Notes: generated by a model not told the origin, from the sequence alone. 64,000 nt of DNA from Paramecium tetraurelia (GCA_000165425.1 CT868035.1:62001-126000), one strand, 5' to 3'. Numbered from the stretch's first letter, positions 18,370 to 41,070 are shown. A program made the numbers and translations.

Positions 18370-21300
18370 TCATTAATTTAATTGAGAACTTCGAAATATC
18401 ATTATTATACTCCATCTAAGTAGTTCCTACTTATCTAAATTATTTATTATACTAAATAATATAAAATTTAAATAACATAATTATAATCTAATGCTGATAA
18501 TTAAATTATTATTATAAAATTAATAATATAATTTGAATAACAAATATTTTTCAAGGTTATTATATTTCTTTTGCAATAGTTCTCCTTCTTGTTGTAGTCT
18601 ACATAGATATATTATGATATTTACTCTAACTTCAGTCTTCTTTTGTTATTATTTCAACATATCTATTTCATTTTCCAACACCACAACTTATTACTCTGTC
18701 TCATTGAATTGTTTATTCAAAGATATAAACTTATTCTTCCATTAATTTTTCTCTACTTCTAAATCTTCTGTATTCGATATCACTGAAATATTGGTGGACA
18801 ATTCTTTAATCCTATGCTCTAATTCTCTTTTAAATTTAATTTAAAAATAAATTACTTAATCTCTTCTTCTTTTTCATCACCAAACTTTTTTTCCTTGTGG
18901 TATTTCTCTTCCCATTCCTAAATTTATCTATCTCTCTCTCTCAACAACCTATTATTTTCTAATATCTGCTATTCCTTATTCTTTGCACTCTTAGCATCCT
19001 CCAAACCTTGATTATAAGATTCAATTAGTAGTTTAGAATGCTACTAAATAAGGTAATTTAATTCTGTTAATTTACTCATTTGCTCATTTATGATTAATTA
19101 CTAATTTTAAATATAATTATACGTATTATCGACTAAGATCATCCAACTTATTGCAACAAACATGTTCATCTAGATTTGATTTATCTAAACTCTTTTCTGA
19201 CTTTAGACCTGATTTTTCAGAACTTCCTATAAATGTATTGGCCCTTTTCTCCTTTGTTAAGTAACCTTTTTCAATCTAGGATTACTACGCATCGAATGCA
19301 CCAGTCATATCTTTATTTGTCAGTTCCCATTTCAAATACCCTTTTTGTCTATTGTACTTATAATTCTAGAGTTAATGAATTAAATTCCAATTACTTCATT
19401 TGGACTCTCAAAATTACTCATCAGCAATAAATTTATATATATAAATGTTAGTATATGTTTAAATGATCATAAATTCCTATTTGCCAAAGTTCCATATTAA
19501 TACGACGAAATTTTAGAATTTTAATTTTCTTTGACGATCTCGTAGGATTCAACCTAAAATTATATAAAAATGATTATTTACTCTAAAAGATCCATTTTTC
19601 TATTTCTTGAAGGTATCCAGTTCAGCATTTGATAATATAAGTTATTCTTGTTATTTATGATACTCTCTATTTAGATTAATAAATTGAACTTTCCAAGAAT
19701 CAACTTCTTGAGATAATTAAGCAATTTTTTCATTGTAAGTAGTAACATCCATCTGAGTAATCAATTTAATTTTTTAGCTGTCACACTCTTCCTACAACTA
19801 TTTGATATTCATCTTATTTGATTCTATCTCTTACAATTTAATTTTCAAGAGGCTGCTCAATCTCTCAATTTCATTAGAATAAACAACATTCTTTTATTCT
19901 AATTCTTTTAATTTGTTAGCTTCACTCAATTAAAATTATGAAAATTGTTATCTTACTTTCTCAATTTCCTCATTCTTACTTCTCAATTGCACAGTCAATC
20001 TTTCAATTTCAGTACTGAGCAAGGCAAACTTCTATTAATATTCCTTCAATTAGGTAATATCTTATAATTTGAATTTTAAATTGTCAATTTCCTCACTTCT
20101 CGATTTCAATAGTAAAGACATTCTACTATTTTCGTTATTCAATCTATCTATTTCTTAAGATTTGTGTTAGAGACTTTAATGTAATCTATCAATTTCTTGG
20201 TTTTATAATCCAATTTTATTTTCATAATCGTCTACTTTGTAGTGATCATTAAGAGTGATCTATAATTTGGCTATGCAATTTCTCAATTGATCATTTTCTT
20301 GTAATTTGATCATCAATGAATTGTTTACTCTATCGAATTCCTAAGCTAGATTTTAATATTTGATTTCATAATCTGTATACTTTTGATATTCTTATAATTA
20401 ATTCTGATAAATCATGAGTTATTGTTTGTACTTATCTAATTCGTCCTGTTTAATTCTGATTCTTTGATTAAGATTGTTAATTTCTTCATTTTATAATTTG
20501 GATCTGATTTCATACTCCTAGTATTTGGAAGTATCCTAGAGAGTCATTTGAAGAGTTTAAATAATAGATTACAGTTTCGAAATCTCTTCATTTTTATTGA
20601 GCATTTCATTCATATACTTATCTTATTGATTATGATTCTCTCTTAGTTGATCATCAATTTTTTATTTATAATTGACTTCTCTATTCTTCAGATCCTAAAT
20701 GTCTAATTCAAAGTCTCTCATACGCTTAGATAGAATCTCAATCTCTTTAATATATGTTTATTTGGATTGATCATATTCTTCTGATTTCTGTTTAAGTAGA
20801 GCAGTAATTCTTTCAAGTTCAGTAGTCAATTAATGTTGTACTTATTATTATTGGATGTACGATTGTTCATATTTCTTACTTTCAATTAGGGTCTTTTGCA
20901 TCTACTGCAATTGGGATTGACTTTGAGAGACTAGTACATTTAATCTTTGGATTTCATTCTACCAATATTGTTCATTGTCTTAAGAACTCTTTTTAATTCT
21001 CTCATATTCAACTTGATTCTACTGAATTGCCATAAATTATTAGGTCATTTGAGATACTTTGATCTTTAATTATTCTGATTCATTTGTAGTTTCTCTAAGC
21101 AGAGTATTTACTCTATTGAGTTCAATTTAATATTATTATAGATTGGCTTCTAATTGTTAGACTCGATGAGTGTCTTCAATATAAGTGACTTTCTCTTGAC
21201 ATGTGTTTTTGATTCTGTGGACTTCATTTGTAAGTTCTTGGATTTATTTTTCATAGAGAGAACACTTATTTTTATAAAATTCAAGTTCTTCTCTGGATGG

Positions 21301-21610
21301 CTCAATCACTTTAACTATCTCTTAAACCTTGATATTATAAGAGGATTATGAAGGCTTCAATTGCTGTGTTTCCAATCTAATGGGTGGTTGAGTTTGTTGT
21401 TGGGGTATGGCTCTGGTGTAAGTATAACATATTGGGAGATGTAAAGAGATTCCTTCTATTACATTTAGACCCTTGGGATTTATGAGGATCCTGATTGGGT
21501 TCTAGAAATTATTGGGTTTGGAAGTAGGATATGCGCTAATCCCTGAGTTCCTTCCTACTTCCTTAATCCAACTCTATATTTAGATTAATGCCAACATACT
21601 TTATATTCAT
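18370..21610 (-). CDS. Large coiled-coil cytoskeletal-type protein; both ends approximate
   Basis: Long E/Q/K-rich heptad frame with recurring LSTEIERL/LTTELERI/YSNEIERL units and several tiny introns. The first ~200 nt could not be joined cleanly to the main frame. Confidence 0.75.
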
Positions 21611-24929: not shown

Positions 24930-26609
24930 TCATTAAATCTTATTTTATGAATAAATATAAATCACAAATTTCAACGAGATCCAATAACTCACAAATCCCA
25001 ACATCAACCATAATACAAAACATGCCAATATACTTTCTCCAAAATAATATAAAAATTAATAAAATCCATGCATATTCATATAATAATAATAATAAAAGAT
25101 GAATCCAAACATGTATATGATGCACTATCCTCCATTAATGAATGATATCCATTGCCAATTGTAATTGCCCTTATTCAATTGTTGATAAGTTTGGATGATT
25201 GATAGACAACCCACTATGATCAACAATTGAATATAAGAGAACAATAACAATGTGTAATACTCAAATGGATGATCACTCCATGTACTCTCCAAAATGTAAT
25301 ATAATTCCAATGCAATTGATCTATTATTTAAAATGTTTCTATATACATAAAGGGCACAATTCCATACAAAAATCCTTTTAATAGAAATGAATAATTTGAG
25401 ATTAACAATTTCTTCTACAATCTTTTTTCAAGCAACTCATCTACAGTTCTCAACCTGCCTGAAACTCCTCCTATTATTGTTAAAGGCATGTACACAAATA
25501 TTAAAATGAAGCCAACAGAAAACATAGCTGTAAATGAGTAAGTTGATGTTGTTCCGAACAATATTGAAAATACATCAATAATAAAAAGTATAAATATTGC
25601 AGATAATGGAAAAAGTCCAGTGGTTATGAGCAAATTTAATAGCCATCTCTTGCCTCCAAAAAATTTATAAAACCTCCCCGTTTGATAACCATTTATGGCT
25701 ATTAATAATATAAATTTACTTACCTCCACAAAAACTATATACAATTATTCCTGCCGATTTTATAGATCCTTTACGAGTGTCAAATAAATCAAATGATCCC
25801 AAGACCAACAAAATCAAAATTGTTACCAAAAAATGAATGCCTGTGCCAAGTAATGCAGAGAACAGAATACGATTTGTGGGAGGCATCAATGATTCAATTT
25901 TGATTGACTTCCATCCTTAAGGTTCGATTTCGTTTTCTTCATCAGGGATATTGCTATAACCACTTTTTATAGATCTCCTCAATAAATAACAGATGACGAA
26001 GACTAAATGTAAGATTATTATGGTCTTTAATAGTAGCGAATTCCATTTGATATCATGATGATGGACATTCATAGTCTCATTGTACTCTTAGATTTTAACA
26101 GTAAAATAGAATTCGATCTATGTGTCATCATCTTATTAATTTATTTATTTAAAATCTCCATCATTCATAGTGATATTAGCATACATCAGTCGTGAATCAT
26201 TCGATACATATAAATTAAATGTGATTCTATTCTTTAGATAATACTGCCCCTCTTTATAATGTCCCACTACATCATGCATTATAAAATCCGCCAAATAAAA
26301 CTCGATTATGTACTCTTAATCTATTGCTTCAATCCATTTCTTTATTTCCGCATTTATAAAATTTCTCTCACAAACCTATTTATCTTCTATCTTCTGTTTT
26401 GAATTGAACTTGTACACTGAAGTCATTTATTTATCCCCAGATAATGATTGTCCAAAAGTTTCAATTACTTCCTCGTAATCACTAGGCTTACAATAGGGCA
26501 ACTCATAATATTCGTAAGTCTCTGAAGGGTTATCTTTAGGTCTAATGGTATTAACATATATCTCAATTGAATTACAGAAAGTAATTAGACATAATAAAAC
26601 AATAATCAT
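24930..26609 (-). CDS. Nonaspanin TM9SF / endomembrane protein 70 family
   Basis: Signal peptide, NTIRPKDNPSETYEYYELPYC, ETFGQSLSGD, GWK, ELYYILESTW, NYNWQWISF, multiple C-terminal TM helices, TGA at 24930-24932. Confidence 0.93.
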
Positions 26610-29531
26610 TTAACTAATTAATATTTTTTGAGAATTTAGAGTAGTTCAATTTACAGTATTGGTTTTTGTAGATAATCGCATAACCCAGAATGATCAAATT
26701 ACATTAAGTTATCCTTTGTATCGTAGGCTGAACAAATTACAATTGCTGTCTTCTTGCATCCCATTGAAATTATCTAAAATAGACAAGCAAACTTACTTCT
26801 TTCGAAGTTTCAAATCCATTTAATCCTGGTAATTCTATATCCATAAATATGATATCATAAAATTAGCAAACAGTTTAGAGCTTTTCTTTGACTCTTTGAA
26901 TTGCTTAATAACCATCATATGCCTAATCACATTAAATTGCAAAATGGTTTAAAATAGCCTTGAGTGCAATTTAATTAAAAATCTAATCGTCAACTATCAA
27001 TATCTTTTTACAAGTAGCATTGCATTCATGTAATTATAAAGTTGATATTTTAAACGAAAACGTTTAGTGTATTAATTATTACTTTGGACTTTCAATAGAT
27101 CTAAATTAAAAATAATTTGATTAAGGTATAATTATACGTTCACTGAAATCCTCAACAATGTTTGGACTTTCATATGATTTGACACCATCTGATTTTTAAA
27201 CAACTTTTTCTGAATTCTCATAATGGTCAGTGTTATCCTGATAGCAATATTTCTTTACAATGAAGTTATCTTCTTATTACCAAGATTAAGATTTATTAGG
27301 AACTACAAAACCACCTGTATTAGATTGATTCCTAGTTTAATCTTAATCCTTTTGATCCTAATCCTTTTAGAGCATTTGATCTTAAATCAAAAAGCTAATA
27401 CTGCTACTATCAGCAGAATTTGATAAAATTTCAATATTTTTATTATTACCCTCAATAAATCCTGATGCTAATTTCGCTGCTAAATTTAATCCAAAACCTA
27501 ACTCTGGATGTGTCATTATGTCATTACAACTGTCATCATCTTGATTCCTCAGCATCATTATTTAATTAAAGGAGAATTGTTTCTTTCTACTCATTTGGGC
27601 TGAGTTGTTTTCTACAGCCACTTATACTGTAAAATCATCTTTAGCATTAAATATTAGGTTGATTTCACCACCCTGTAAAATATTGTTAGATTAATGATTT
27701 AGAATATTTAACAACACTTAAATGATTCTTAATTTGTCGGAATTCAAATACTTTTCAGACAGATTAGATTAAATTCTGATCTAAAATTGGATTTTCTTCT
27801 GAATTATATATGGAATAAACACTTATTCAATTTCATTGATCAATTCATTGATTGAGAATCTGCAGAAGAAATATGCAAATTCATTGAGTTAATAAGATAT
27901 GAAATCCAAAATATTATTCATTTGATATTATAGAAAAGAAGTAGAACACTAGAGCAATTCCACTTTTTCTGTAATTTCCTATTCCTCTTTTATGACATCT
28001 CTAAAGATCCTTAAATACTGCTGATTCAAATTAAGAGGAGTTCTTAATTAGAACAATTATTTTTTTAAAACATGATAGAATTATTAATTTTTCATTTCAA
28101 TTTTTTTAAATTTATTTTTATAAGTGATATCTTTTAGGATTAATATCAACACAGGTTGATTTTTAAAATCTCCAAAAATTTACATATCATTTTGAGCTAA
28201 TGAATCTAATTACTAATTTGTCATCTATGTTTGAATAATTGTAAGTTTTAAAAATTTATTTGATTCTAAAGAAAGACTAAAACGAAATTAATTTTAATTT
28301 ATTTGTTAGCCAGAAGATTCATCAATACTACTTTTTTCTCCCTCATAGTTATTCTATTGAATGAGATATTGATTCAGATATTTATTTTAGTTTAGTAAAA
28401 CATCAAAAATATCCAATTAAACTTTATTCTATTGTGCTTTTTTTATTATTTCTTCTAATGTATGTTAATTCATTTCAATTTTTCTGTTATTTTGAGATTA
28501 CGGGAAGTTTAAGCCATTATCCAAATTAACAACATGATTTCTAATGCAATCTTTTAGTTTCGACAGTATTAACTCTTCTTTATTACAATCCATCAACGCC
28601 ATAAATTTCTTATTCATAAATTGTAGATGTTGAAATTTATTCAAAATAATTATGCCATCTGGGATTAAATGTAAAATTCTGGTAATGAAAAGGCGGGAGC
28701 AAAAATCAGATTTGTCAACATCGATAGACTCTTTTTATCGAACAGCTGAAAATAAATCGTTATATGATAAATGTTTATTGGAAAGGATGCTGGGACTTCT
28801 TAATTTTTCTTTGTCCTTGGATTAATCCTGAAAAAACAAGTTACTAGATTCATGCTATCTCATTATTTTTCTTTTTGAATATTTTAAGGTATTCATATAC
28901 CGATCTGATTACTCCTCATCTTGCAATTGCAAAGACAAACGAATTTTTGCAGAGATTATAGATTTTTCATCCCCCAAAATAGCAAATACAAAGACCAAAA
29001 TAATTATGATGCTTTCTAAAATTGTATAATCAAATTTAATGAAAACAATTGAGAATAGTCTCAATATTATATAACAAGGATAACAAAACCTGATTATTTT
29101 ATATGAAATTTGTTTAGCGACTATTTCTTTAATAATATATTAATTAGTTACAATAAACAGAGTGTTTGTGTGATTAGAAAAGGGATTAAAAAGTTAATAA
29201 AGGAGTAGGTTTATTTCTGTATAGGTGATAGTATCAGCAAGAATTAGTAGTAGAAGCAATAAATATTACCCTTTATTGTTAATTTTTTTAATTTGCATAA
29301 GCAATCCTAGTTTCAGGACTATTGATGTTGAAGCCAGAGTTATGATTGCAATTTAATGATTCCATTTTAATATGATGGATAATATTATCCACCATACACA
29401 TTGGAGTCCTTCTAAAATTAAAATTATGTTTGTATTCATTATTAATATTAAATTTTTTAGCAACAGATTTTCTGAATATCTTTAAGTTTAACATTACTGA
29501 ACTTTCGAATTAAGAGTTTTTAGAAGTTCAT
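26606..29531 (-). CDS. Hybrid histidine pseudokinase (TM region, PAS-like, degenerate HisKA/HATPase, intact receiver), ~959 aa
   Basis: Intact frame with two 23-nt introns. H-box reads KKQLFQLRTPLN, N-box NILNHQSN and G1 VENNSAQM. Receiver motifs ILIVDD, FMDIELPGLNG, CSAYD and QKP are intact. Confidence 0.88.
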
Positions 29532-29557
29532 AGTATTTTATAATAATAATACACAGA

Positions 29558-32439
29558 TCAATTAAAATTCTTTTGAAACAGTTTCTTCAACACTTCCTCC
29601 AATTCATCTTATTTTACAGGCTTTGGAAGAAATGTCGAGATACCAACTTTTTGTCCTTCACTGAAATTTTCTTAAGTGTCATACGCAGAACAAATTACTA
29701 TCATTGATTGTTTTTAAGTCAATTCATTAATCTAAAATATAACATCAAATTTACCTATTTACTTGTTTAAAACCCATCAATCCCTGGCATCTCTATGTCC
29801 ATAAATATTAATTTATAAGTAGGACAATGTCCCTACAATTTTGTCTTAACTTTTTCAATCGCTTACAATCCATCAAATGCTTGATCTGCTTCTATTTGAT
29901 AATATTTGAGCATCAATTTAAGTGCTATTTGATTAAATGGAATATCATCAACAATTAACACATGAACACAATTATCACATAAAAAGATGCTTTTTTGGAT
30001 ACTATACTAAGGCAAGGTATTTTAGCATGTAGGAAGAAACTTATGTGAGAAGTATTCAGGACTGATGGGTAAAGAAATTTATGGTTGTTTCATATCATCA
30101 TTAAGTTTTGGAGTGTTCAAAGAAGATTCTTATTCATAAACAAAATTATCCTAAAATTAATAATCATAATCTAATTTTGAATTCATTTACTTAATTAAAA
30201 TTCTATCATCAAATTTTCTCTCACTTAATGTATATTAAATACCTGATTGATTGAATCTTCCAGTTAATTGCGATACGTAATTAGATTAATATTAATCATT
30301 TGTAGCATTAAAGAAATTTTAAACTAAAAATTACACTTTTGTTCCTTGATTTTTTATAGAACTGATTAGCACCTAATTATTATTTGATTCAGCTAATCCT
30401 TCTACTAATCTAGCTGCAATATGCAACCCAAGTCCTGCCTTTTAAGAAACTTAATGAGATTTCAATCTTGCACCGTACTCTGAAGTACCTTTCAAACTAT
30501 TTTGAATTAATGCTAATTTATCATCTTCTATTCCTATTCCATTATCTTTCACTGATACTTTTAGATGGAATAGACTCATTTATTTAATACTAAGTTTGAC
30601 TGTCCCTCCTTCTTTCGTATATTTTGTGGCATTATTTAATAAGTTAACAATAATTTAAAGAATTCTTTGCTTATCATTACAAATAATGGAATCTTTCAAT
30701 GATGGCTATACTTTAATTTAAAAATGAATTTTCTTCTGTCTCATTTATATATTATAAAGATTCTCAATTTCTTGAGTGATCTGATTGATACTGAATCTGG
30801 TGAGATGATAAGAGAAGGAGAAGGATTAAATGGCAGCATAATCAAGTATATCATTAATTTGATGAATTAAAAGAGTAATGGAACACATAGCTATGTCAAC
30901 ATACTCCTGCACATTATTCTCTTTATTCTAATTCTTGATTAGGTTTAACATATGTTAACATGAATTCAATGGAGTTCTCAATTCATGAGAGAATGATTTA
31001 ATTAAACTATGGTGAATAATCTATTCATCTTTCATTTATTGATATCTGTGTTTGCTTGTTACATTCTTAATCATTATAAGTAGAACTGGGATTTCTGAAT
31101 CATTGTTAACTTAGATATTGAGTTTGCTTGAAAATTTATTTTATGAAGGGAGAGATATGTATTCTTACTGTTGTCCAGTCATTGTAGTTGGGATGATGAT
31201 TAATTTGAGTTTCTTCTAATTAATTTTATTTTACACTTCAGATTCAAATAACCATTCATATATAAATGCCTATTATTGTAGTGTCAGTTGATCTGTTTTC
31301 GAATCTTCTTAACTATACGATTCTCCACGTTATTCCAACATTCCATAATATTTTGAAGGATAAAGCATGATATCAAAAATATCTGCTCTTCGATTATCCT
31401 TTTGCAGTTTTCTAACTATCCTTTAAAGAGTATATTAATTTATTTATCTATTTAATTTGGTTGTTTACAAATTATTGGATATTTCACTCTCATTATCTGA
31501 CATTTTAGCATTATTAACACAAACTTTAATCTTCTCCAAGACCTACTCTCCTCCCTAACTTTCCAATAACTTTTCGCATTTGTTATTCATATAGGTAATT
31601 TATTGTAATTGATTTAAAATCACAATTCCTTATGGGAAAATATTGATAAGGTTCTAGTAAAATATATGTAATTGTAAATCTGACTTTTCAGAAGGTTTAT
31701 TTTACTTTTAAGATTTTGACAAATTAGTTAAATTAGAAAATTATCCTACTTTCAAATCACTTGGTTGATCCTTCATTAAAACACTTTAGCTTTTCAATGG
31801 TGTTTGAATAATAGAGAGTCTGCTAAATGATTTTAGTAAAGATTATTGTTGATGATTTGGCGATTCCTTCTCATCTACTTTTTTTAATTATAATTCCGGT
31901 ATTTTAGTTTTACCTTTAGTATTACTATTAACATTAACCTTCTCATCATATTACTCATAAGTTAACAAGTACTAAATTAAAACAACAATTATTATTAATA
32001 AGCATTCTATAGCAAAATAATTAAAGGAAATAAAGGCGATGGATACGAGTCTTAAAATAATATAAAAGGGAAGTCCTAATTTACATATGTAACTCCATTT
32101 TTAAATTGCAAATTTCAAATACGAATTGTAAGTAATAATTATTAATAAACTACTTGAGAAGATGCTCCAAGAGTAATCGTAATTCATGAGCAATAAAGAT
32201 TCAATATAAGTCGCGTAATAAATTAGAGATACTATGTGCACAAATATTAACATTCCGTAATTTTTGATGATCAAAATTGATTACAAAATTCTCATTGTTA
32301 CACACCCTATTTGCAAATAAAACACAATATAGTTTATTGGTTCTATGAAGTATAAAGCCAAAACCATCCACCATAAACTTTAAAGAATATTGGCTATCAA
32401 TATGAGGTTCATAGCAAATAATTTCAATATTTGCTTCAT
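29558..32439 (-). CDS. Hybrid sensor histidine kinase / response regulator (TM, PAS-like, HisKA, HATPase, REC); start may lie slightly upstream
   Basis: FSHELRTPLN, NLLNNATKYT, VKDNGIGI, AGLGL, IVDDIPFN, FMDIEMPGIDG and PKP. One 23-nt intron in the receiver. Confidence 0.93.
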
Positions 32440-32584
32440 GCAGTAATGAATATCTCTTTATTTATTTATAAAAATTAAATTAAAGCACATTAGATATTTT
32501 GTCTAAAACATTTTAGCCAAATATTTAATTGAGGCTTTAAGAAATTAGTAATAAATAGTAAAATAAACATATAAAAACCTTTGT

Positions 32585-35396
32585 TCATATTTTAAATAAA
32601 TATTTTTTTAAGATTTTGTCTAACTCCTTTTTGTTAACAGGTTTGGATAAGAATTCTGTTACACCAACTTATAACGCAAAATTGTAATTCTCAAGAGTAT
32701 CATATGCAGAACACATAACGATTATTGATTAGACACCTGGTATTTATGAGATCTAGTTATAGACGTAGTTTTACAATTTGGGAAGTTTTGAAACCATTCA
32801 AACCAGGCATTTCAATGTCCATAAATATCAATCTAAAGAACTTGCAATGGCCTATCAATTTCTATTTCACCATCTCAACTGCTTAGTACCCATCAAAAGC
32901 AGATTCTGCCTTTATTTTGAAATGATTAAGCATTTGAATAAAAGCAATTTAATTAAATGGGATGTCATCAACAATTAAGATTTACGAACAATTGTCACAG
33001 TTATTGGCATGTATTTAAAAAGATAAAAGCGACCCTTATTGTCTCGATAGTTGGATCAGATTTTTTTTGAACCTATAAGTACTTATAGGAACTACAACTG
33101 AACTGGATAAGTCATCGTTAATTCTAGGACTTTCTATTTGCTCTTTTAAAATAGTTGATTCCAAATCAAATTTTTATTAAAGTCCTTTCATTAAAGTTTA
33201 TGAGAGTTCCGATTTTTGAATAATATGGGACGAAGCGGGAGATAGTACTTCAAATCTTCCAGTAATATTACTTTATTGTTGGGATATCTAGAAGTCCTGA
33301 TTCGTAGTTTCTAAGTTTTAAAATAGAAAAGCAACCTGGGTTCCATTGTTAACGCTAGAGTTGATATCCAAGTAGGCTTTATTATTGGTTAATTTTTTGA
33401 CAATTTTCCCAGATATTTTTAGACCAAATCCAAGGCCAGTATCGTGAGATATTCTATAGGAAGGTTTGCAGAAGGTCTTTCTAATTTATTCTAATTTGTT
33501 TTATTAGATTCCTATACCAGTATCTCTAACAATAACTTAGATCAAGTTGCATTTCATTTATTTAAATGACAAATCAATATCACCAGCAGGTTTAGTAAAT
33601 TTGCATGAATTATTTAAGAGGTTAACTAAGACTTGCATTATTCTTTATTTGTCGTTGATAAATATTTGATTTTATAAGGATTAATCATATTAGATTTCTA
33701 GTTTGATATTTTTATAACTTACTTGTTAATCATACAACTCATGAATCTCTTAAATTAGATCTATGATATTAAATGAAGTTGTATGTTAAGAGAAAGTCTT
33801 TGATTGCATGGCAGCAAAATCTAAGATATCATTAATTTAGTAGTTTAATAATTTAATTGAACTTTATGCTATATTTAAGTACTAATGTATAATTTCATCC
33901 ATTGAAACTTCTTTAATGATATTAAGCATATGTTGACAACTATTTAAAGGGGTTCTTAGTTCATGTGAGAATGACTTCAAAAGTGAATTATTAATGAATC
34001 GTTCTTTTTTTAATTATTTAACTCTATTTTTATGGGTAGTATTCTTAATTAAAATGATTAATATAGGTTAAGGAAAATCATTTGAGTTTTATTTTTTGGA
34101 ATTCGTCAACCCATTTTATGAGATTGCTTCCTATTAGCTTAAAGTCATTTATGTTTACTATAAAATGAATTTGAGTTTTTTTGAATCTTCGCATCTTTCT
34201 TTATCAATTGAACCTTCAAAGAAAAAAGTGTGTTCTTATAAGGTAGAAGGATCAGACAAATAAATTGACCCTGAACTACTTCTCTCTTATTCAAATGATC
34301 CATTCTATCCTGAAAATAGTGCTGAGATATATTTATTTGGATTCAACAAGACATCGAAAACGTCTAATTCTTGATTACTTTATTTGTAGATTCTAATTAT
34401 TTCTTCTAAGACTCTTTAGGTTAACTTATTTCTGGTTCTTGTCAGAGATTATTAAGCATCTTCAGGTATATCACAATTGGACAAACACTTTTTAATGTAC
34501 TCAACTACTCTTTCTTTTCCATCACATTCCAAAAGTTTTTCACACTTTGAACTTATAAATTAGATCTACTGGAATTTATTTAGCATCAAAACTCCCTCTG
34601 GTAAAACATTGACAAGATTTTAATAGAAATTGGATAATTAGGAGTCATTCCTGTCCACTACTAAATGAGAATATTAGCCTTTGTATCCTGCTTTAAGTTT
34701 TGAATGAAAAGAAGGTATTGGAGCACTTTCTTCTCTATATGAATCTTTGATGTTAATTTATACACTATTTCTAGGATGCGAACCTTTATCTGGATAGAAA
34801 ATGAATTTATTTGAATTTTAAGTGAATCGCTTTTCTTATTTAAATTATGATTATTGCAAGGAACTAGAACAATTTTATAAGGATTGATCTAATTTTGGAT
34901 TTGATTGAGTTGAGCTCGCAGAAACATTCTAATTTGAAAAATACACTAACAAAATTAAGACCATTAAAGAGGAAGCCTCACATAATTGAATATCAAATTG
35001 AATAAATATGAGCGAGATCAATCTCATTAATACATAGGTTGGGAATGCAAATCTCGATATCAATCTTATAGATTAATTTTTTATTAGTAGTTATGCTTCC
35101 ATATAATTTAAAAGGATGATTAATGTGTTGATATGATTTAAATATAAAATTTTACTTTCGAAGTTAATATTGACCTCTGTATAGCATACATTATTAGCCA
35201 ATGTAGCTATTAGAATCAATCTATCATACTACCAATTCTTCTTAAGGCATACAACAGATGCAAGCAGCCTTGTTATTATGCATAACGAACACATAAAGTA
35301 ATACGTGTAATTTTACTATTAATAAATCAATAGCATTTCAACAATCCACCAGATTTGTTAAATAATTTGTATAAGGAAAATGTATCTGTGATTCAT
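32585..35396 (-). CDS. Hybrid sensor histidine kinase / response regulator (TM, PAS-like, HisKA, HATPase, REC), ~929 aa
   Basis: FSHELRTPLN, NLLNNSCKFT, VRDTGIGI, TGLGFGL, IVDDIPFN, FMDIEMPGLNG and SKP. One 22-nt intron in the receiver. Confidence 0.93.
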
Positions 35397-36974
35397 AATC
35401 CAGACTTATCCAAATATTCAATTAATTTATTAAAATATGTTTTAATTATTTATATATTATGATACATTCATTATTTAATTAGCTAATAAATACTTAATTA
35501 AATTAGATAAATTATTATTTAGATCGATTAATTTCTACTTTTTAAATCTCTTATTTATCTTAGTTCTTGAATATAATCAAAAATTATGGAGAAATTATAT
35601 ACAAAATACTTCAATCAAACTCAATTATTTTTATTAATTCTATCTTCTATGCACTTATCATATAGGCATTCAGCTGGGTAACTCGCCATTGAGTAATCGT
35701 TTTGAATAATTCAATTTTAATCTATAAAACCTTGAATAAAAACAAACTTTATTCTCATAATATAAATCTCTTGTTCTTTGGAAACCTTCATTTCCTTACT
35801 CCTTGGTTTCCATAACAAATAAAAGTGTTATTTAGAATCATTCCATTTTAGAAATGCACTTCTACTCTAACTAAACTAAATATTTTATGTGTTTTAAAGG
35901 TAACAAATATTCATAAGTTTTTTTGTAATGCTTGGTTGTATCTCAACACAGTTTTATTGTATTCTAACTGGCAGCATATATTATCTAAAATCATATATTT
36001 TTATACTTAAATAAGTAGGTGTCAGATCAGATTATTGGTTTTCCTATTACCTGAAATGAAATTTGATTTAAAATATTAAAATCAAATTTTAGCTGTTCGG
36101 ATTAGATTTCTGAAATGCCATCACACTTTATCTAACCTTTAAAATTAGAATTTAAATGAATTCTTTTGTATTTATCTCTAATAAATAATGATATTCAAGT
36201 TTGGATAGAATGTTTGAGAACTGATGTAAACTTTAAGAAGGCGCAGACAATATTATAAATATAACTTTACGATTTTATAAATATGGTAGATTAGGGTAGA
36301 AACAGTAAAGAGTTTGCTTTTTAGGTCAACGAGTTGGGAAGAAAACTTATTATTTCACAAAATTTTATTATTAATAAATTAGAATATTTATTGGATATTT
36401 AATATAATAATATAATTTTTAAACTTTATTCGATATTAAAATTCTTGCAAATAAACAAAATTTATTAAATTTTTCATAAGGTTTTCATGAATATTTTCAT
36501 TATTATTTACTTTTATCTGTTAGAATGAATTTTATTCTTTTTAAACTCCTGATTTAAATATGAAATTTAAGTTAGATTGAATATTTTTTCTGACATTAAA
36601 TCTAACACAGAAAACATAACCTAATATTTATCTATTTCAAAATGCTATTGTCCATCATTAACTGATGACAAATATTTATTAATACTCCTAGATATTAAAG
36701 TCGATTTTCTGATTTCTGAATATTTATAAATAACTCAAAGTAGGCATCTTAGAATCAGCAATTAAAGTCTCTTACACATCAAAATTGTTACTTTTATAGC
36801 ATTTCTAATAAACAAAATTAATGAATTAGCATATGTTTATATAGGTAATATAATAAATAAGATTTTAGATTCAAGTTGAAACAGAATGTTTATATACAGA
36901 TGTTAAGATATGAAAATGTGAATGTTCTGAAATGCAATAAAATGATTAATAGCATATTAATAAATTAATATAAT

Positions 36975-39900
36975 ATGATAAATTAGTAGAATGTGAATCT
37001 ATAAAGCAATGTTAAGGTTCAATCCATATTAGGTTTCATACCAGCCTTGGTGTTTTAACACATTCTTGAAAATCAAATAAAGGGGATAAAAGCCTAGGTT
37101 CCAGAGATTCAGTCATTTAAGAGTGTAATAATGTTTGCTGATATATGTGGATTCACTAACTTAACAGAACAACTTTCTAAAATAGGTCCAGAAGGATCAG
37201 AAGTGATAGCATTCGCAATCAATAGATATATGGAATTGTTGATAAAATCAATATCAAAGAGTGGAGGAGACATATTCAAATTTGCAGGAGATGCTATTAT
37301 AGTTGTATGGCCGCCTCCGACAAGTTACAATGATAAAGATGAATAGCTCAAAACCTTACTACGTTAAGGAATATAAAGTGCCTTAGATATTTAAGCAAAA
37401 TTGAATGATACTTTCATTTTGGAGAATATAAAACTATCTGTTAAAATAGGATTTGGAGTTGGAGATATCAACATTTTATATGTCGGAGGAGTGTTCAATA
37501 GAAATGAATTCCTAGCAACAGGTTAGGCTCTGATTTAGGCTTTCGAGAGTGAAGCACTGTGCCACAAAAGGAGGCTAAGTTATAATATCTAAGGATGTAT
37601 TTGATATGGTGGGATAGTATTATAATTGTTAAAAAGTGGAATAGTCGTTAATCTTATTTTGTGAATTCCAATAAAGGAGCCAAAGTATAGAATATTTCAA
37701 ACGCTCTCTTAATTAAGAGTAACTTTAGTGCTCAATCATTTGAATCAATAAAGAGTCAATTAATAAGATATATACCTGCTGCCTTACAGTAATACATCTA
37801 TGTAAGTATGCGTATAAAATTAGGTAGATTAAGAAAAATGGAGTTCTGAATTAAGAATATTAACAATAATGTTCATAAATTTGAGTATTGATTTGTCAGC
37901 AGCACTCACTTCTAATGGGTTAAGTCATATTTAATAAGTTGTAGAAACTGTATAAAAATCAATATATGCATTCTAAGGATCTCTCAATAAAATCTTAATG
38001 GATGATAAGGGATCAACATTAATTGTAGTCTTTGGTCTACCTCCTATGGCTAAATAGGATGATCCTGCTAGAGCGGTGATGACTGCTATTACAATGAAAT
38101 AGGAATTAAATGCTATCAATTGTGGATGTAAAATTGGCATTTCGACTGGATGCACTTTCGCTGGTGTAGTTGGAACAAGTGGTTCTAGAAGAGAGTATTA
38201 TTAATATCAATTTAATCTCTAGATACTCTGTAATTGGAGATGCCGTTAATCTGGCAGCTAGACTTATGCAAATTGCTTGTAAAGATGATTAACATTCCAT
38301 TTTGCTTGACGTTGAAACATCAAAAGAAGCTTCATATAAAATGAACATCTCATACTACAAATCCGTTTTGGTCAAAGGAAAAGCAGATAAGGTCAATATT
38401 TATTACCCAGAGGCCAATTTGGAATTGAATAAAATTAGAATTCATAATCCTTTCTTTCCAAGACTTCTCGATAATTATTTATTCGATATTAGCAATTTAA
38501 GAATAATCTAAAGAAGAATTCAATAGTTTCAACTTCAAAATGAATCAAATGTAGTGTTGAAAATCTCTGGAAATTAAGGGTCAGGAAAGTCATATTCTGT
38601 TAAATACTCAATAGATTTCTTTTAGGAGAGTTTTAATTTTATATAAATTAGATTATGTTCCTTTTTATAGAAAGAACAACAATATTTGTATGCTATTAAA
38701 ATTATATTCTAACATTTTCTAAAGAAGATAGGCATCTAACTAAATAAATAATATGATGTTTAATTATTCAAGCAAATATTTGACGAATAAGATCAACTAT
38801 TACAACTCTTTGATTTTGAACCCGTTAGTTAGATCTAACTATTTGATAAGGACTTAAAAAATAAAAATGATTCCTTAGAAACCCTAGACATTCAAATGAT
38901 CAAAGAAAATATAGACTTGTTATTCAAGAAGTTTTAATCGATCACTAACTATCATAAATTAATTTTCGTTTTAGATGATGGTCATAACATCGATGAAGAT
39001 TCTCTAAAAATCATTAGACATCTCATGAAACACAATTAATTCATTTTGCTCATCTTCATTTTCAGATATGAGTACATTGAGTAATTCTAATTTCATGAAT
39101 AACATCAAAATCAAATTCAAATGATTGAAGATGAATTAGATTCAATAACATCTAAATTAAATGATATCAGTAATTTTGAGCATCTCAATTTCAAAAATAT
39201 ATCATTAAATGACTATTAAGTATTGTTATCTGATTTATTTCATATCAATAAGATTAGGTGTTTAAAGAACTAAGAGCAGTCTAATACTCAAGATAAAAAT
39301 ATTTTGCATTATGAATACATTAAATCTTAATTAATGTAATCTAATACTTAAGAATTTTTTTTACAAACCATCTATAGAAAAACATAAGGAAATCCACTGA
39401 CCTTCATAACAATAGTATTTATATATAATTATTATTAGATTGAAAAATTATTGAAGTGCAATTATATGGTTGTAGATAATTAACAATAGGATGTAGTTAT
39501 AATAAATGATTCACTTTAAAATATACTAAATCTGGATGAATTTGTCATTTTAGAATCTCCCTTGAATAAATTCAGACTTAATTCACCCTATTTGGATAAG
39601 GTAGGATGTTTAGAGTTATTGATACTTAAAGTGGCATCAATAATTGGAGACATATTTGATGTATAAACCCTTAATAAAATATAACCATTCAAAGAAGTCA
39701 TTTAAAAAGAAAATTTGATTAAGATTCTAAATAGCTTAGAAGAATTGGAAATCATAGAAACCATGGAACTTAATGATTTGAATAAATATTACAGATTTGC
39801 TAAGCCATTTCTTAGAGAAATTATATATTAGCGATTGCTATTCTCATAAAGGAGAGAACTACATAAATATTACGCGCAAGCATTATAAGAAATTCCATCC

Positions 39901-41070
39901 TAATTTGAAATTGATGAAAAATTGGAAGCTTAGAGATTGGAACATAATTGGATCCTGGCTGAATAAAGGTGGAATAGTTAATCAAATCTGAAACCAAGAG
40001 GATTAGAATTATCGCATAAAGCTAAAAGATCTATCATAATTAAATCAATTCAAACTAAATTAATAGCTAAAACTAATAATATTAAACTTGGTTTATTGAA
40101 AAAGAAATCAGATAAGAATGTCACTTGGGCAGAAAGATATTGTCTGATGACACAAAAAGAATTAAAATATTACTATAGTGAATCAGACTATCATCGATAA
40201 CCATAGAATGCCTTAGCAACTATTATTCTCAGTAGTATTTATTAGATAGTTCCACTTAATGACAAAGAGAAAGTTAATTAAAAGTATGCCTTTGAAATTA
40301 GAACAGGAAATTGGTTTAAAAGATAAAAACTAATGCCAAGAAGAGACTTCTATTTCTCAGCAACAAGTGAAGAATTAATGGAAGAATGGACTATTTATAT
40401 AGAATTTATGAGAGTCAAAGCTACTTATGATGAATTTGTTAATAATTTTGGGAAAATCTAATTTCCAATTGCAAACTTTAAAGAATTCTATGATATGAGT
40501 TTAGGAGCTGAAATGAATAATTATTAACAAAAGTAAACATAAAATAAGAATAATAAATCTAGTATCATTCAAACCTAAAAAAGAAATACTGTGCTATCTA
40601 TCAATAGTTTTTTTAGATAATCTATTGTTGAGAAGAAATAGAAATAAAATAAAGAAGAACTTAAAATATTAATATCTAAGTTTTTCAATAAAAGTTAATT
40701 ATTGCTATTCACACATATATTCGAAAATTCAATTTCAAGTAGAATCCCTGTTATAATTGGTTAAAACACAAAAGCCATGTTAAAATTTGGATAATTCTTT
40801 GTTAAAACTGTTTCAGAATATTCATAATAGTAATAACAAGAAAATGAAACAATTTAAACTGAAGAATCTCCACAAACAAGACCGAGAGCAAGTTTGAACA
40901 TTTCAGAATAAATAATATTAGAAAGTTAAGCTGAATCTATATAAGGAACCCTTAGAAATACAAAAAGGAAATAAACTGCTGAATAGTTTTATAATAAGAG
41001 ATCTAAGAGCTCAGAATTTCTTATTTAATTTAATGAAAATTCCAATTTGGAATAATAATAACAAAGTTGA
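36975..41070 (+). CDS. Soluble (ADCY10-like) adenylyl/guanylyl cyclase with tandem catalytic domains, STAND P-loop NTPase and C-terminal PH domain; frame break near 37554
   Basis: C1 has MFADICGFT and DIFKFAGDA. C2 has NKILMDDKG and RREYSVIGDAVNLAARLM. Walker A is SGNQGSGKS, Walker B is FVLDDGHNID, followed by QGNPL and LKVASIIGDIF. PH region is GLLKKKSDKNVTWAERYCLM..FYFSATSEELMEEWTIYI. Confidence 0.88.

What the first reader, a model, noticed from the sequence alone, without database searches (positions are those of the whole stretch)
26606..35396. Tandem hybrid histidine-kinase triplet with one intact but catalytically dead member
Seen in sequence: three co-oriented paralogues share the TM-PAS-like-HisKA-HATPase-REC layout and an intron at the same codon of the receiver (after GFxTSxx). 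Two have canonical motifs (SHELRTPLN, NLLNN-x2-K, DxGIGI). The third (26606-29531) has LFQLRTPLN with the phospho-His replaced by Phe (28051-28053), NILNHQSN and ENNSAQM. It still keeps an uninterrupted ~959-codon frame and a complete receiver (DD, phospho-Asp in FMDIELP, SA, KP). Established: these His, N-box and G1 residues are needed for autophosphorylation and ATP binding, and bacterial DivL is a known HK pseudokinase. Inference: true pseudogenes nearby are full of stops, so this looks like a maintained pseudokinase. It could act as a receiver-only phosphate sink or a heterodimer partner for its neighbours, i.e. a locally encoded eukaryotic two-component module.
Basis: partly seen in the sequence, partly recalled or inferred. 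Interest (0 to 1): 0.8.

Follow-up and report, generated by a model that had tools for sequence, protein, structure and literature searches.

The report
Conserved dead histidine kinase in Paramecium
A Paramecium membrane sensor kinase lost the residues it needs to phosphorylate itself two genome duplications ago, yet is still kept intact beside its active sister genes, so it probably works as a non-catalytic partner in their signalling, much as known pseudokinases do in bacteria and plants.

Summary
Confirmed. Three co-oriented hybrid histidine kinases (B, C, D) share a receiver intron. D lacks the phospho-His (Phe), the N-box Asn/Lys and the G1 box, but keeps DD/D/S/K in its receiver. It is neither a lesion nor a pseudogene. 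Nine D copies from four Paramecium aurelia species carry the Phe and each lies next to a C gene. The loss predates the intermediate genome duplication. dN/dS against the recent ohnologue is 0.147, and 0.117 in the dead core, matching active C (0.113). In a survey of 183 kinase genes of this genome, 179 keep the His; D is the only lineage that lost H, N and G1 together. Corrections: the likely start is 29439 (936 aa), PAS is sub-threshold, and the triplet remains from a four-gene tandem array. Best mechanism (inferred, about 0.45): a membrane-anchored receiver phosphorylated in trans by sister kinases, with the dead core as a dimer scaffold (RetS-like). A phosphorylation-independent role (PsmA/ETR2-like) is a strong rival. 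Expression and binding were not tested. It is a new member of a known kind; I found no description of it in eight literature searches.

The parts
26606..29439 (-). Gene D: hybrid pseudo-histidine kinase, 936 aa (exon 1 29439-26797, exon 2 26773-26606)
   Evidence: start supported by orthologues
28972..29427 (-). D N-terminal hydrophobic region, 5 predicted membrane segments (residues 5-156)
   Evidence: hydropathy scan
28570..28686 (-). D weak PAS-like segment (residues 252-290), below the Pfam cut-off
28030..28053 (-). D H-box FQLRTPLN: Phe (28053-28051) in place of the phospho-His, Gln at H+1, Thr kept at H+4
27685..27708 (-). D degenerate N box NILNHQSN (second conserved Asn replaced by His, Lys by Asn)
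27592..27612 (-). D degenerate G1 box ENNSAQM (Asp and both Gly lost)
27487..27501 (-). D retained G2-like motif LGFGL
26606..27003 (-). D receiver domain: DD 26991-26986, phospho-Asp 26841-26839, Ser 26731-26729, Lys 26665-26663
   Evidence: exon-2 positions counted from the translation
26774..26796 (-). D receiver intron, 23 nt GT-AG
29558..32439 (-). Gene C: canonical hybrid histidine kinase, 952 aa, intron 29754-29732 (public name GSPATT00034411001)
32585..35396 (-). Gene B: canonical hybrid histidine kinase, 929 aa, intron 32774-32753
35767..36139 (-). Probable eroded remnant of array member A, which is intact in three paralogous regions
   Evidence: 61% nucleotide identity over 287 nt, E 9e-10 under permissive scoring; almost no protein-level signal
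25575..26609 (-). 5' part of the downstream TM9SF/EMP70 gene; its ATG overlaps D's stop codon

Best explanation
Shown: D is an old, selected pseudo-histidine kinase. It arose by tandem duplication within the A-B-C-D kinase array and lost His, N-box and G1 residues before the intermediate whole-genome duplication. By established HisKA chemistry it cannot autophosphorylate and probably cannot bind ATP, while its receiver stays phosphorylation-competent. Inferred: D works as a membrane-anchored receiver. Its Asp is loaded in trans from the His of an active kinase, most plausibly its array sisters, so it drains or diverts their phosphoryl flux as RetS does to GacS. The dead DHp-CA core is kept as a dimerisation and interaction scaffold that links the membrane input to the receiver.
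For: Phe at the His position in 9 of 9 D sequences from 4 species; His in 26 of 26 A, B and C sequences. The older ohnologue reads FSFELRTPLN, so this is a substitution, not a deletion. D is monophyletic with support 100 inside the array clade. dN/dS for D against its recent ohnologue: exon 1 0.147 (95% CI 0.113-0.186), DHp+CA 0.117 (C: 0.113), receiver exon 1 0.046 (C: 0.048). Across the intermediate duplication the receiver stayed as conserved as C's (75% vs 78%) while the dead core drifted, which points to the receiver as the constant function. D's receiver helix 1 is 57-71% identical to A, B and C, within the 57-64% they share with each other, and averages 33% to other kinases. No Hpt domain was found in the genome, so kinase histidines are the evident donors. 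The DHp hydrophobic core is intact (15 of 17 columns), and the model folds as DHp+CA (pLDDT 82). D lies next to C at 9 of 9 loci. [quoted passage not shown]
Against: No biochemistry and no expression data. Receiver similarity to the sisters is expected from common descent alone. In PsmA the conserved receiver Asp is dispensable (PMC12963549, section 10). D's receiver has the same D+2, T+1 and T+2 residues (E, A, Y) as its sisters, so it shows no sign of tuning as a fast sink. In the C402-type copy, helix 1 is only 36% identical to C. C orthologues occur on three contigs where no D was retrieved (longer proteins were not searched), and four dispersed C-like genes were found with no D in the fetched flanks. 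Joint loss of C and D in the fourth paralogous region may be a single deletion. The Hpt search could miss a divergent or intron-split gene. The fold model was built on an alignment made mostly of active kinases.
Confidence: 0.45

Rival explanations
1. Phosphorylation-independent receptor or scaffold: D signals through its membrane region and protein contacts (PsmA-like or ETR2-like), and the receiver Asp is conserved for structural reasons.
For: The whole protein is constrained, including the membrane region (dN/dS 0.20) and the CA-receiver linker (0.11). The dead core diverged fast between the two D sublineages and then froze (DHp 78-99% identical between species), which suits new partners. 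PsmA and the subfamily II ethylene receptors are precedents.
Against: All five catalytic receiver positions are kept in every D copy whose receiver could be read whole (Glu for the first Asp in two), and the receiver is the most constrained domain.
Confidence: 0.27
2. Dominant-negative heterodimer: D's DHp pairs with a sister kinase and blocks its autophosphorylation (RetS mechanism 3), and the receiver is secondary.
For: Intact DHp core; constant adjacency to C; the RetS-GacS DHp heterodimer structure (PMC8498467, passages).
Against: D's DHp is 36-44% identical to the sisters, against 64% among them. It changed far more than C's across the intermediate duplication (45% vs 83%), which is hard to square with a fixed interface.
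Confidence: 0.11
3. DivL-like reverse sensor, or phosphatase only: the His-less DHp binds a phosphorylated receiver (its own, a sister's or a single-domain regulator's) and either reports it or dephosphorylates it.
For: LRTPLN is invariant in 9 of 9 D sequences, including Thr at H+4, and the C402-type copies keep ExxT. In RetS this Thr is required for phosphatase activity. DivL binds DivK~P without a His. Single-domain receivers exist in the genome.
Against: The window-type copies have Gln at H+1. The docking stretch H+5 to H+20 differs between the two D sublineages (38% identical). RetS keeps its His, and DivL lacks phosphatase activity.
Confidence: 0.11
4. Decaying duplicate, or a local sequence error, with no function.
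For: Long branches for D. Low divergence of D's last exon is partly due to overlap with the TM9SF start.
Against: dN/dS confidence intervals all lie below 0.22 without exon 2. All 8 indel runs against the ohnologue are in frame. The same lesions occur in 4 species. Member A appears to have eroded almost beyond recognition in the same interval.
Confidence: 0.03
5. Converted kinase with Ser/Thr activity, as reported for ETR2-type receptors.
For: Precedent in PMC2952764 (passages); G2 is retained.
Against: The N-box Asn and the G1 Asp and Gly residues are lost in 9 of 9 D sequences.
Confidence: 0.03

Closest known systems
RetS (Pseudomonas aeruginosa)
   Same: Membrane hybrid kinase with a degenerate HATPase that cannot bind ATP; regulates another kinase as a phosphate sink, a phosphatase and a DHp heterodimer partner. 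Its kinase region ranks first in the fold search, but ordinary kinases score alike, so the rank means little.
   Different: RetS keeps the His and HExxT and has two receivers; its partner GacS has an Hpt. D lacks the His, has one receiver and arose independently in a ciliate.
PsmA (Streptomyces venezuelae)
   Same: PAS-HK-receiver pseudokinase without the His and without ATP-binding residues, keeping the receiver Asp.
   Different: Soluble, has a long disordered linker, binds DivIVA, Asp shown dispensable; no active tandem sisters were described in the sections I read.
Plant subfamily II ethylene receptors (ETR2, EIN4)
   Same: Eukaryotic membrane receptors with an eroded His-kinase domain and a receiver, kept beside active paralogues after duplication.
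   Different: Ethylene-binding and GAF input, reported Ser/Thr activity; not orthologous.
DivL (Caulobacter)
   Same: Aromatic residue (Tyr) at the His position; no kinase activity.
   Different: No receiver of its own (recalled; consistent with the passages read), still binds an ATP analogue weakly, acts as a sensor of DivK~P.
CCNA_03265 (Caulobacter)
   Same: Hybrid kinase lacking the His with the receiver Asp retained; heterodimer or Hpt loading proposed (PMC11481889).
   Different: Bacterial, untested, Hpt proteins available.
Ciliate multi-TM hybrid histidine kinase family
   Same: D belongs to it by descent. 201 membrane kinases are reported for P. tetraurelia and 70-83 for Tetrahymena.
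   Different: The passages I read do not mention catalytically dead members.

Membership tests
Active HisKA hybrid histidine kinase (gene D) | Phospho-acceptor His in the H box | tested here: not met
   Phe in 9 of 9 D sequences; a His seven residues upstream is not conserved
Active HisKA hybrid histidine kinase (gene D) | N-box Asn and G1 DxGxG | tested here: not met
Active HisKA hybrid histidine kinase (gene D) | Receiver with DD, D, S/T, K | tested here: met
Active HisKA hybrid histidine kinase (genes B, C) | H, N, G1, G2 boxes and a complete receiver | tested here: met
   activity itself not assayed
Pseudo-histidine kinase | Kinase fold retained | tested here: met
   AlphaFold2 pLDDT 82 with histidine kinases as top matches; the alignment was dominated by active relatives
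Pseudo-histidine kinase | Catalytic residues lost but gene under purifying selection | tested here: met
Pseudo-histidine kinase | No autokinase activity in vitro | not testable with these tools
   needs an assay
RetS-type kinase modulator | HExxT phosphatase motif | tested here: not met
   FQxxT or FExxT; only the Thr is kept in all copies
RetS-type kinase modulator | Receiver accepts phosphate from a partner kinase | not testable with these tools
   only sequence compatibility was examined
RetS-type kinase modulator | DHp heterodimer with the partner kinase | not tested
   the complex predictor was not available; sequence evidence is mixed
DivL-type | Non-His residue at the phospho site, no own receiver, binds a phosphorylated regulator | tested here: not met
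   D carries a receiver; binding untested
ChpT-like phosphotransferase (features recalled) | His retained on a dead kinase core | tested here: not met
   D lacks the His; a separate 17-member clade keeps it in 16
Pseudogene | dN/dS near 1, stops or frameshifts | tested here: not met

The most novel reading that the evidence does not exclude
Paramecium runs about 200 hybrid kinases without an Hpt protein and wires them through repurposed dead kinases instead. His-less members such as D would act as trans-phosphorylated membrane receivers, and the 17-member clade that keeps the His but has Lys at H+1 and an eroded ATP pocket would act as ChpT-like relays to the few single-domain regulators. That would be a eukaryotic phosphorelay of a different design.
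Probability: 0.12. Interest if true: 0.8.

Novelty: new member of a known kind. Interest (0 to 1): 0.47.

Why it matters
I found no functional account of the large ciliate histidine-kinase family in the passages I read, and no Hpt was detected in this genome, so how these kinases pass on a signal is open. D is a rare (3 of 183), dated and well-controlled case of a kinase turned pseudokinase: the active sisters, the duplication history and a lost sibling all lie in the same array. It gives a concrete, testable handle on kinase-to-kinase signalling in a ciliate, and it is an origin of the hybrid pseudokinase independent of those in bacteria and plants. The concept itself is known.

Tried and rejected
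Expression: the run search gave no RNA holder listed and no reads could be laid, so transcription, the start site and the introns are untested by reads. Complex prediction of D with C was not available, so there is no verdict on binding. His deleted rather than substituted: rejected, because the C402-type copies read FSFELRTPLN. Start at 29531: disfavoured. Truncated receiver in the C29 ohnologue (public model P0006): rejected, the genomic exon 2 is intact. D-TM9SF fusion proteins in three public models (P0004, P0005, P0230): judged annotation artefacts, since TM9SF has its own ATG and hydrophobic leader and the C402 copy has no TM9SF in the fetched flanks; not tested by reads. Receiver exon 2 as evidence of selection: set aside because of the overlap with TM9SF. 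Orthologues outside the aurelia group: none among the best 150 hits in 1.84 billion representatives or; P. bursaria hits are distant paralogues. Array remnants in the two older paralogous regions: none in the 20 kb fetched from each. RetS as top fold hit: not used as evidence. Earlier scan notes: nothing. PMC5975490 (passages) had nothing relevant. Divergence across the intermediate duplication is near saturation at synonymous sites (dS about 2.5, or undefined), so those ratios were not relied on.

Full report
Sequence. The window is AT-rich ciliate DNA read with code 6. Three long minus-strand frames encode hybrid histidine kinases, here B, C and D. C is 100% identical over the searched region to a named Paramecium tetraurelia protein. 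Removing one GT-AG intron of 22-23 nt after the same receiver codon gives clean proteins of 929, 952 and 936 aa. B and C pass the Pfam cut-offs for HisKA, HATPase_c and Response_reg; D passes only Response_reg. D has Phe at the His position, His and Asn for the N-box Asn and Lys, and no G1 Asp or Gly. It keeps G2, the Thr at H+4 and all receiver catalytic residues.

History. Synteny places the array in four paralogous regions: the window (B, C, D), C29 (A, B, C, D), C402 (A, C, D) and C86 (A only). From flanking-gene identities of about 83-90% and about 60-68% I read C29 as the recent and C402/C86 as the intermediate whole-genome duplication; the names of these events are recalled. A probable eroded remnant of A lies at 35767-36139 (weak at protein level). 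D sequences were retrieved from P. tetraurelia (3), P. pentaurelia (2), P. sonneborni (2) and P. octaurelia (2), and none from P. primaurelia (longer proteins were not searched). All 9 have Phe, a broken N box and no G1, whereas 26 of 26 aligned A, B and C sequences keep the His. The C402-type copies read FSFELRTPLN, so His-to-Phe came first and H+1 changed later in the window's sublineage. D is one clade inside the array clade. It lies next to C at 9 of 9 loci, by genomic DNA or neighbouring accession numbers.

Selection. Against the C29 ohnologue (Nei-Gojobori, exon 1, dS 1.09), D gives dN/dS 0.147 (95% CI 0.113-0.186), DHp 0.082, CA 0.147, DHp to CA 0.117 and receiver 0.046. C gives 0.117, 0.064, 0.110, 0.113 and 0.048; B gives 0.092 overall. 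Exon 2 was left out because D's stop overlaps the TM9SF ATG and silent divergence there is suppressed (3 of 50 codons against 21 of 49 and 22 of 50). Between species the dead core is about as conserved as C's active core (DHp 78-99% against 88-92%). Across the intermediate duplication, however, D's DHp and CA fell to 45% and 39% (C: 83% and 70%), while the receiver held at 75% (C: 78%). This pattern of a burst followed by stasis says the core is functional but its surfaces were remodelled, and that the receiver is the constant part.

Rarity. I fetched the loci of 143 HisKA matches, of receiver-motif and receiver-profile matches and of the D search. Of 189 gene groups, 183 had an aligned H box and 6 did not. 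Of the 183, 179 have His, 3 Phe (the D copies) and 1 Asn; 160 are canonical at H, H+1, N and G1. The other 23 are the 3 D copies, a 17-member clade with Lys at H+1 and eroded N, G1 and G2 boxes (His kept in 16; one clade with support 1.0), and 3 genes whose N box was unaligned or misaligned. A published count is 201 membrane kinases, and my entry points favour intact genes (only 51 of 235 receiver candidates were scored), so further dead members may be missed. No Hpt match was found (0 candidates; the control rang in 9 of 14 genomes). Three single-domain receivers were found.

Structure. AlphaFold2 on a 100-sequence alignment of this genome's kinases gives a DHp hairpin plus a CA domain (pLDDT 82, pTM 0.81) that matches RetS, GacS, phytochromes, HK853 and DivL. 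The alignment biases the model toward that fold. The DHp core is hydrophobic at 15 of 17 columns, as in many active kinases. The closest solved sequences are hybrid-kinase receivers such as SLN1.

Mechanism. Shown: the catalytic residues are lost, the receiver is intact, and the protein is under selection. From established two-component chemistry: D cannot phosphorylate itself, so any phosphate on its Asp must come from another His. Inferred: with no Hpt found, the donors are other kinases, and the sisters have the most similar docking helices, so D most likely drains or diverts their phosphoryl flux (0.45). Against this: shared descent explains the similarity; the variable positions that set receiver kinetics (PMC8510515) equal the sisters'; PsmA's Asp is dispensable; and C copies occur where no D was found. 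The rivals are a phosphorylation-independent role (0.27), a blocking heterodimer (0.11), a DivL-like sensor or phosphatase (0.11), a relic (0.03) and a Ser/Thr kinase (0.03). Expression and binding remain untested.

Literature. Eight full-text searches turned up no description of a ciliate pseudo-histidine kinase. What I saw: PMC6324907, passages and section 16; PMC12963549, abstract and sections 10 and 15; PMC5992135, abstract and section 7; passages only of PMC1557398, PMC8498467, PMC11481889, PMC10463195, PMC2952764, PMC4211667, PMC8510515 and PMC5975490. I opened no supplements; the tables of PMC6324907 and PMC10463195, and the 2009 P. tetraurelia kinome paper (seen only as a reference), could list degenerate members. 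The library lacks most subscription papers. ChpT features and the motif names H, N, G1 and G2 as applied to the alignments are recalled.

Verdict. A real, ancient, selected pseudokinase; a new and independent member of a known kind. Interest 0.47: solid and testable, rare within its family, but the concept has bacterial and plant precedents and the module idea is unproven.

Noticed in passing
G000 C7, C56, C70, C83, C224, C258, C313, C391, C447, C513, C535, C666 (e.g. L177, L119, L124): A 17-member kinase clade with HKLKT[P/S]L[N/H]: His kept in 16, Lys at H+1, N/G1/G2 boxes eroded to varying degrees, receivers intact, often in tandem. Candidates for a second pseudokinase or phosphotransferase lineage.
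   Followed up: partly
G000 whole genome: No Hpt (PF01627) match despite at least 183 hybrid kinases.
   Followed up: partly
L043, L089, L122 (G000 C1:125.5k, C34:174k, C524:292k): Three intron-split single-domain CheY-like receivers, possible end points of the kinase network.
   Followed up: partly
window 26550-26800: D's stop overlaps the TM9SF start codon; 96-100% nucleotide identity to the ohnologue over 26700-26551 suggests the TM9SF promoter lies in D's last exon, or gene conversion. Three public gene models fuse the two genes.
   Followed up: partly
window 36825-41070 (+): Divergently transcribed gene or genes with a weak cyclase domain, an AAA-like domain and a PH domain next to the array, syntenic on C29.
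   Followed up: no
window 35767-36139: Probable eroded remnant of array member A.
   Followed up: partly
window 19549-21606 (-): Gln/Glu-rich gene with no Pfam match, kept in six paralogous copies.
   Followed up: no
L044, L148: Two otherwise canonical kinases read MDVELP with ED at the acidic pair; a few others (L048, L094, L185) showed no aligned phospho-Asp, possibly from introns.
   Followed up: no
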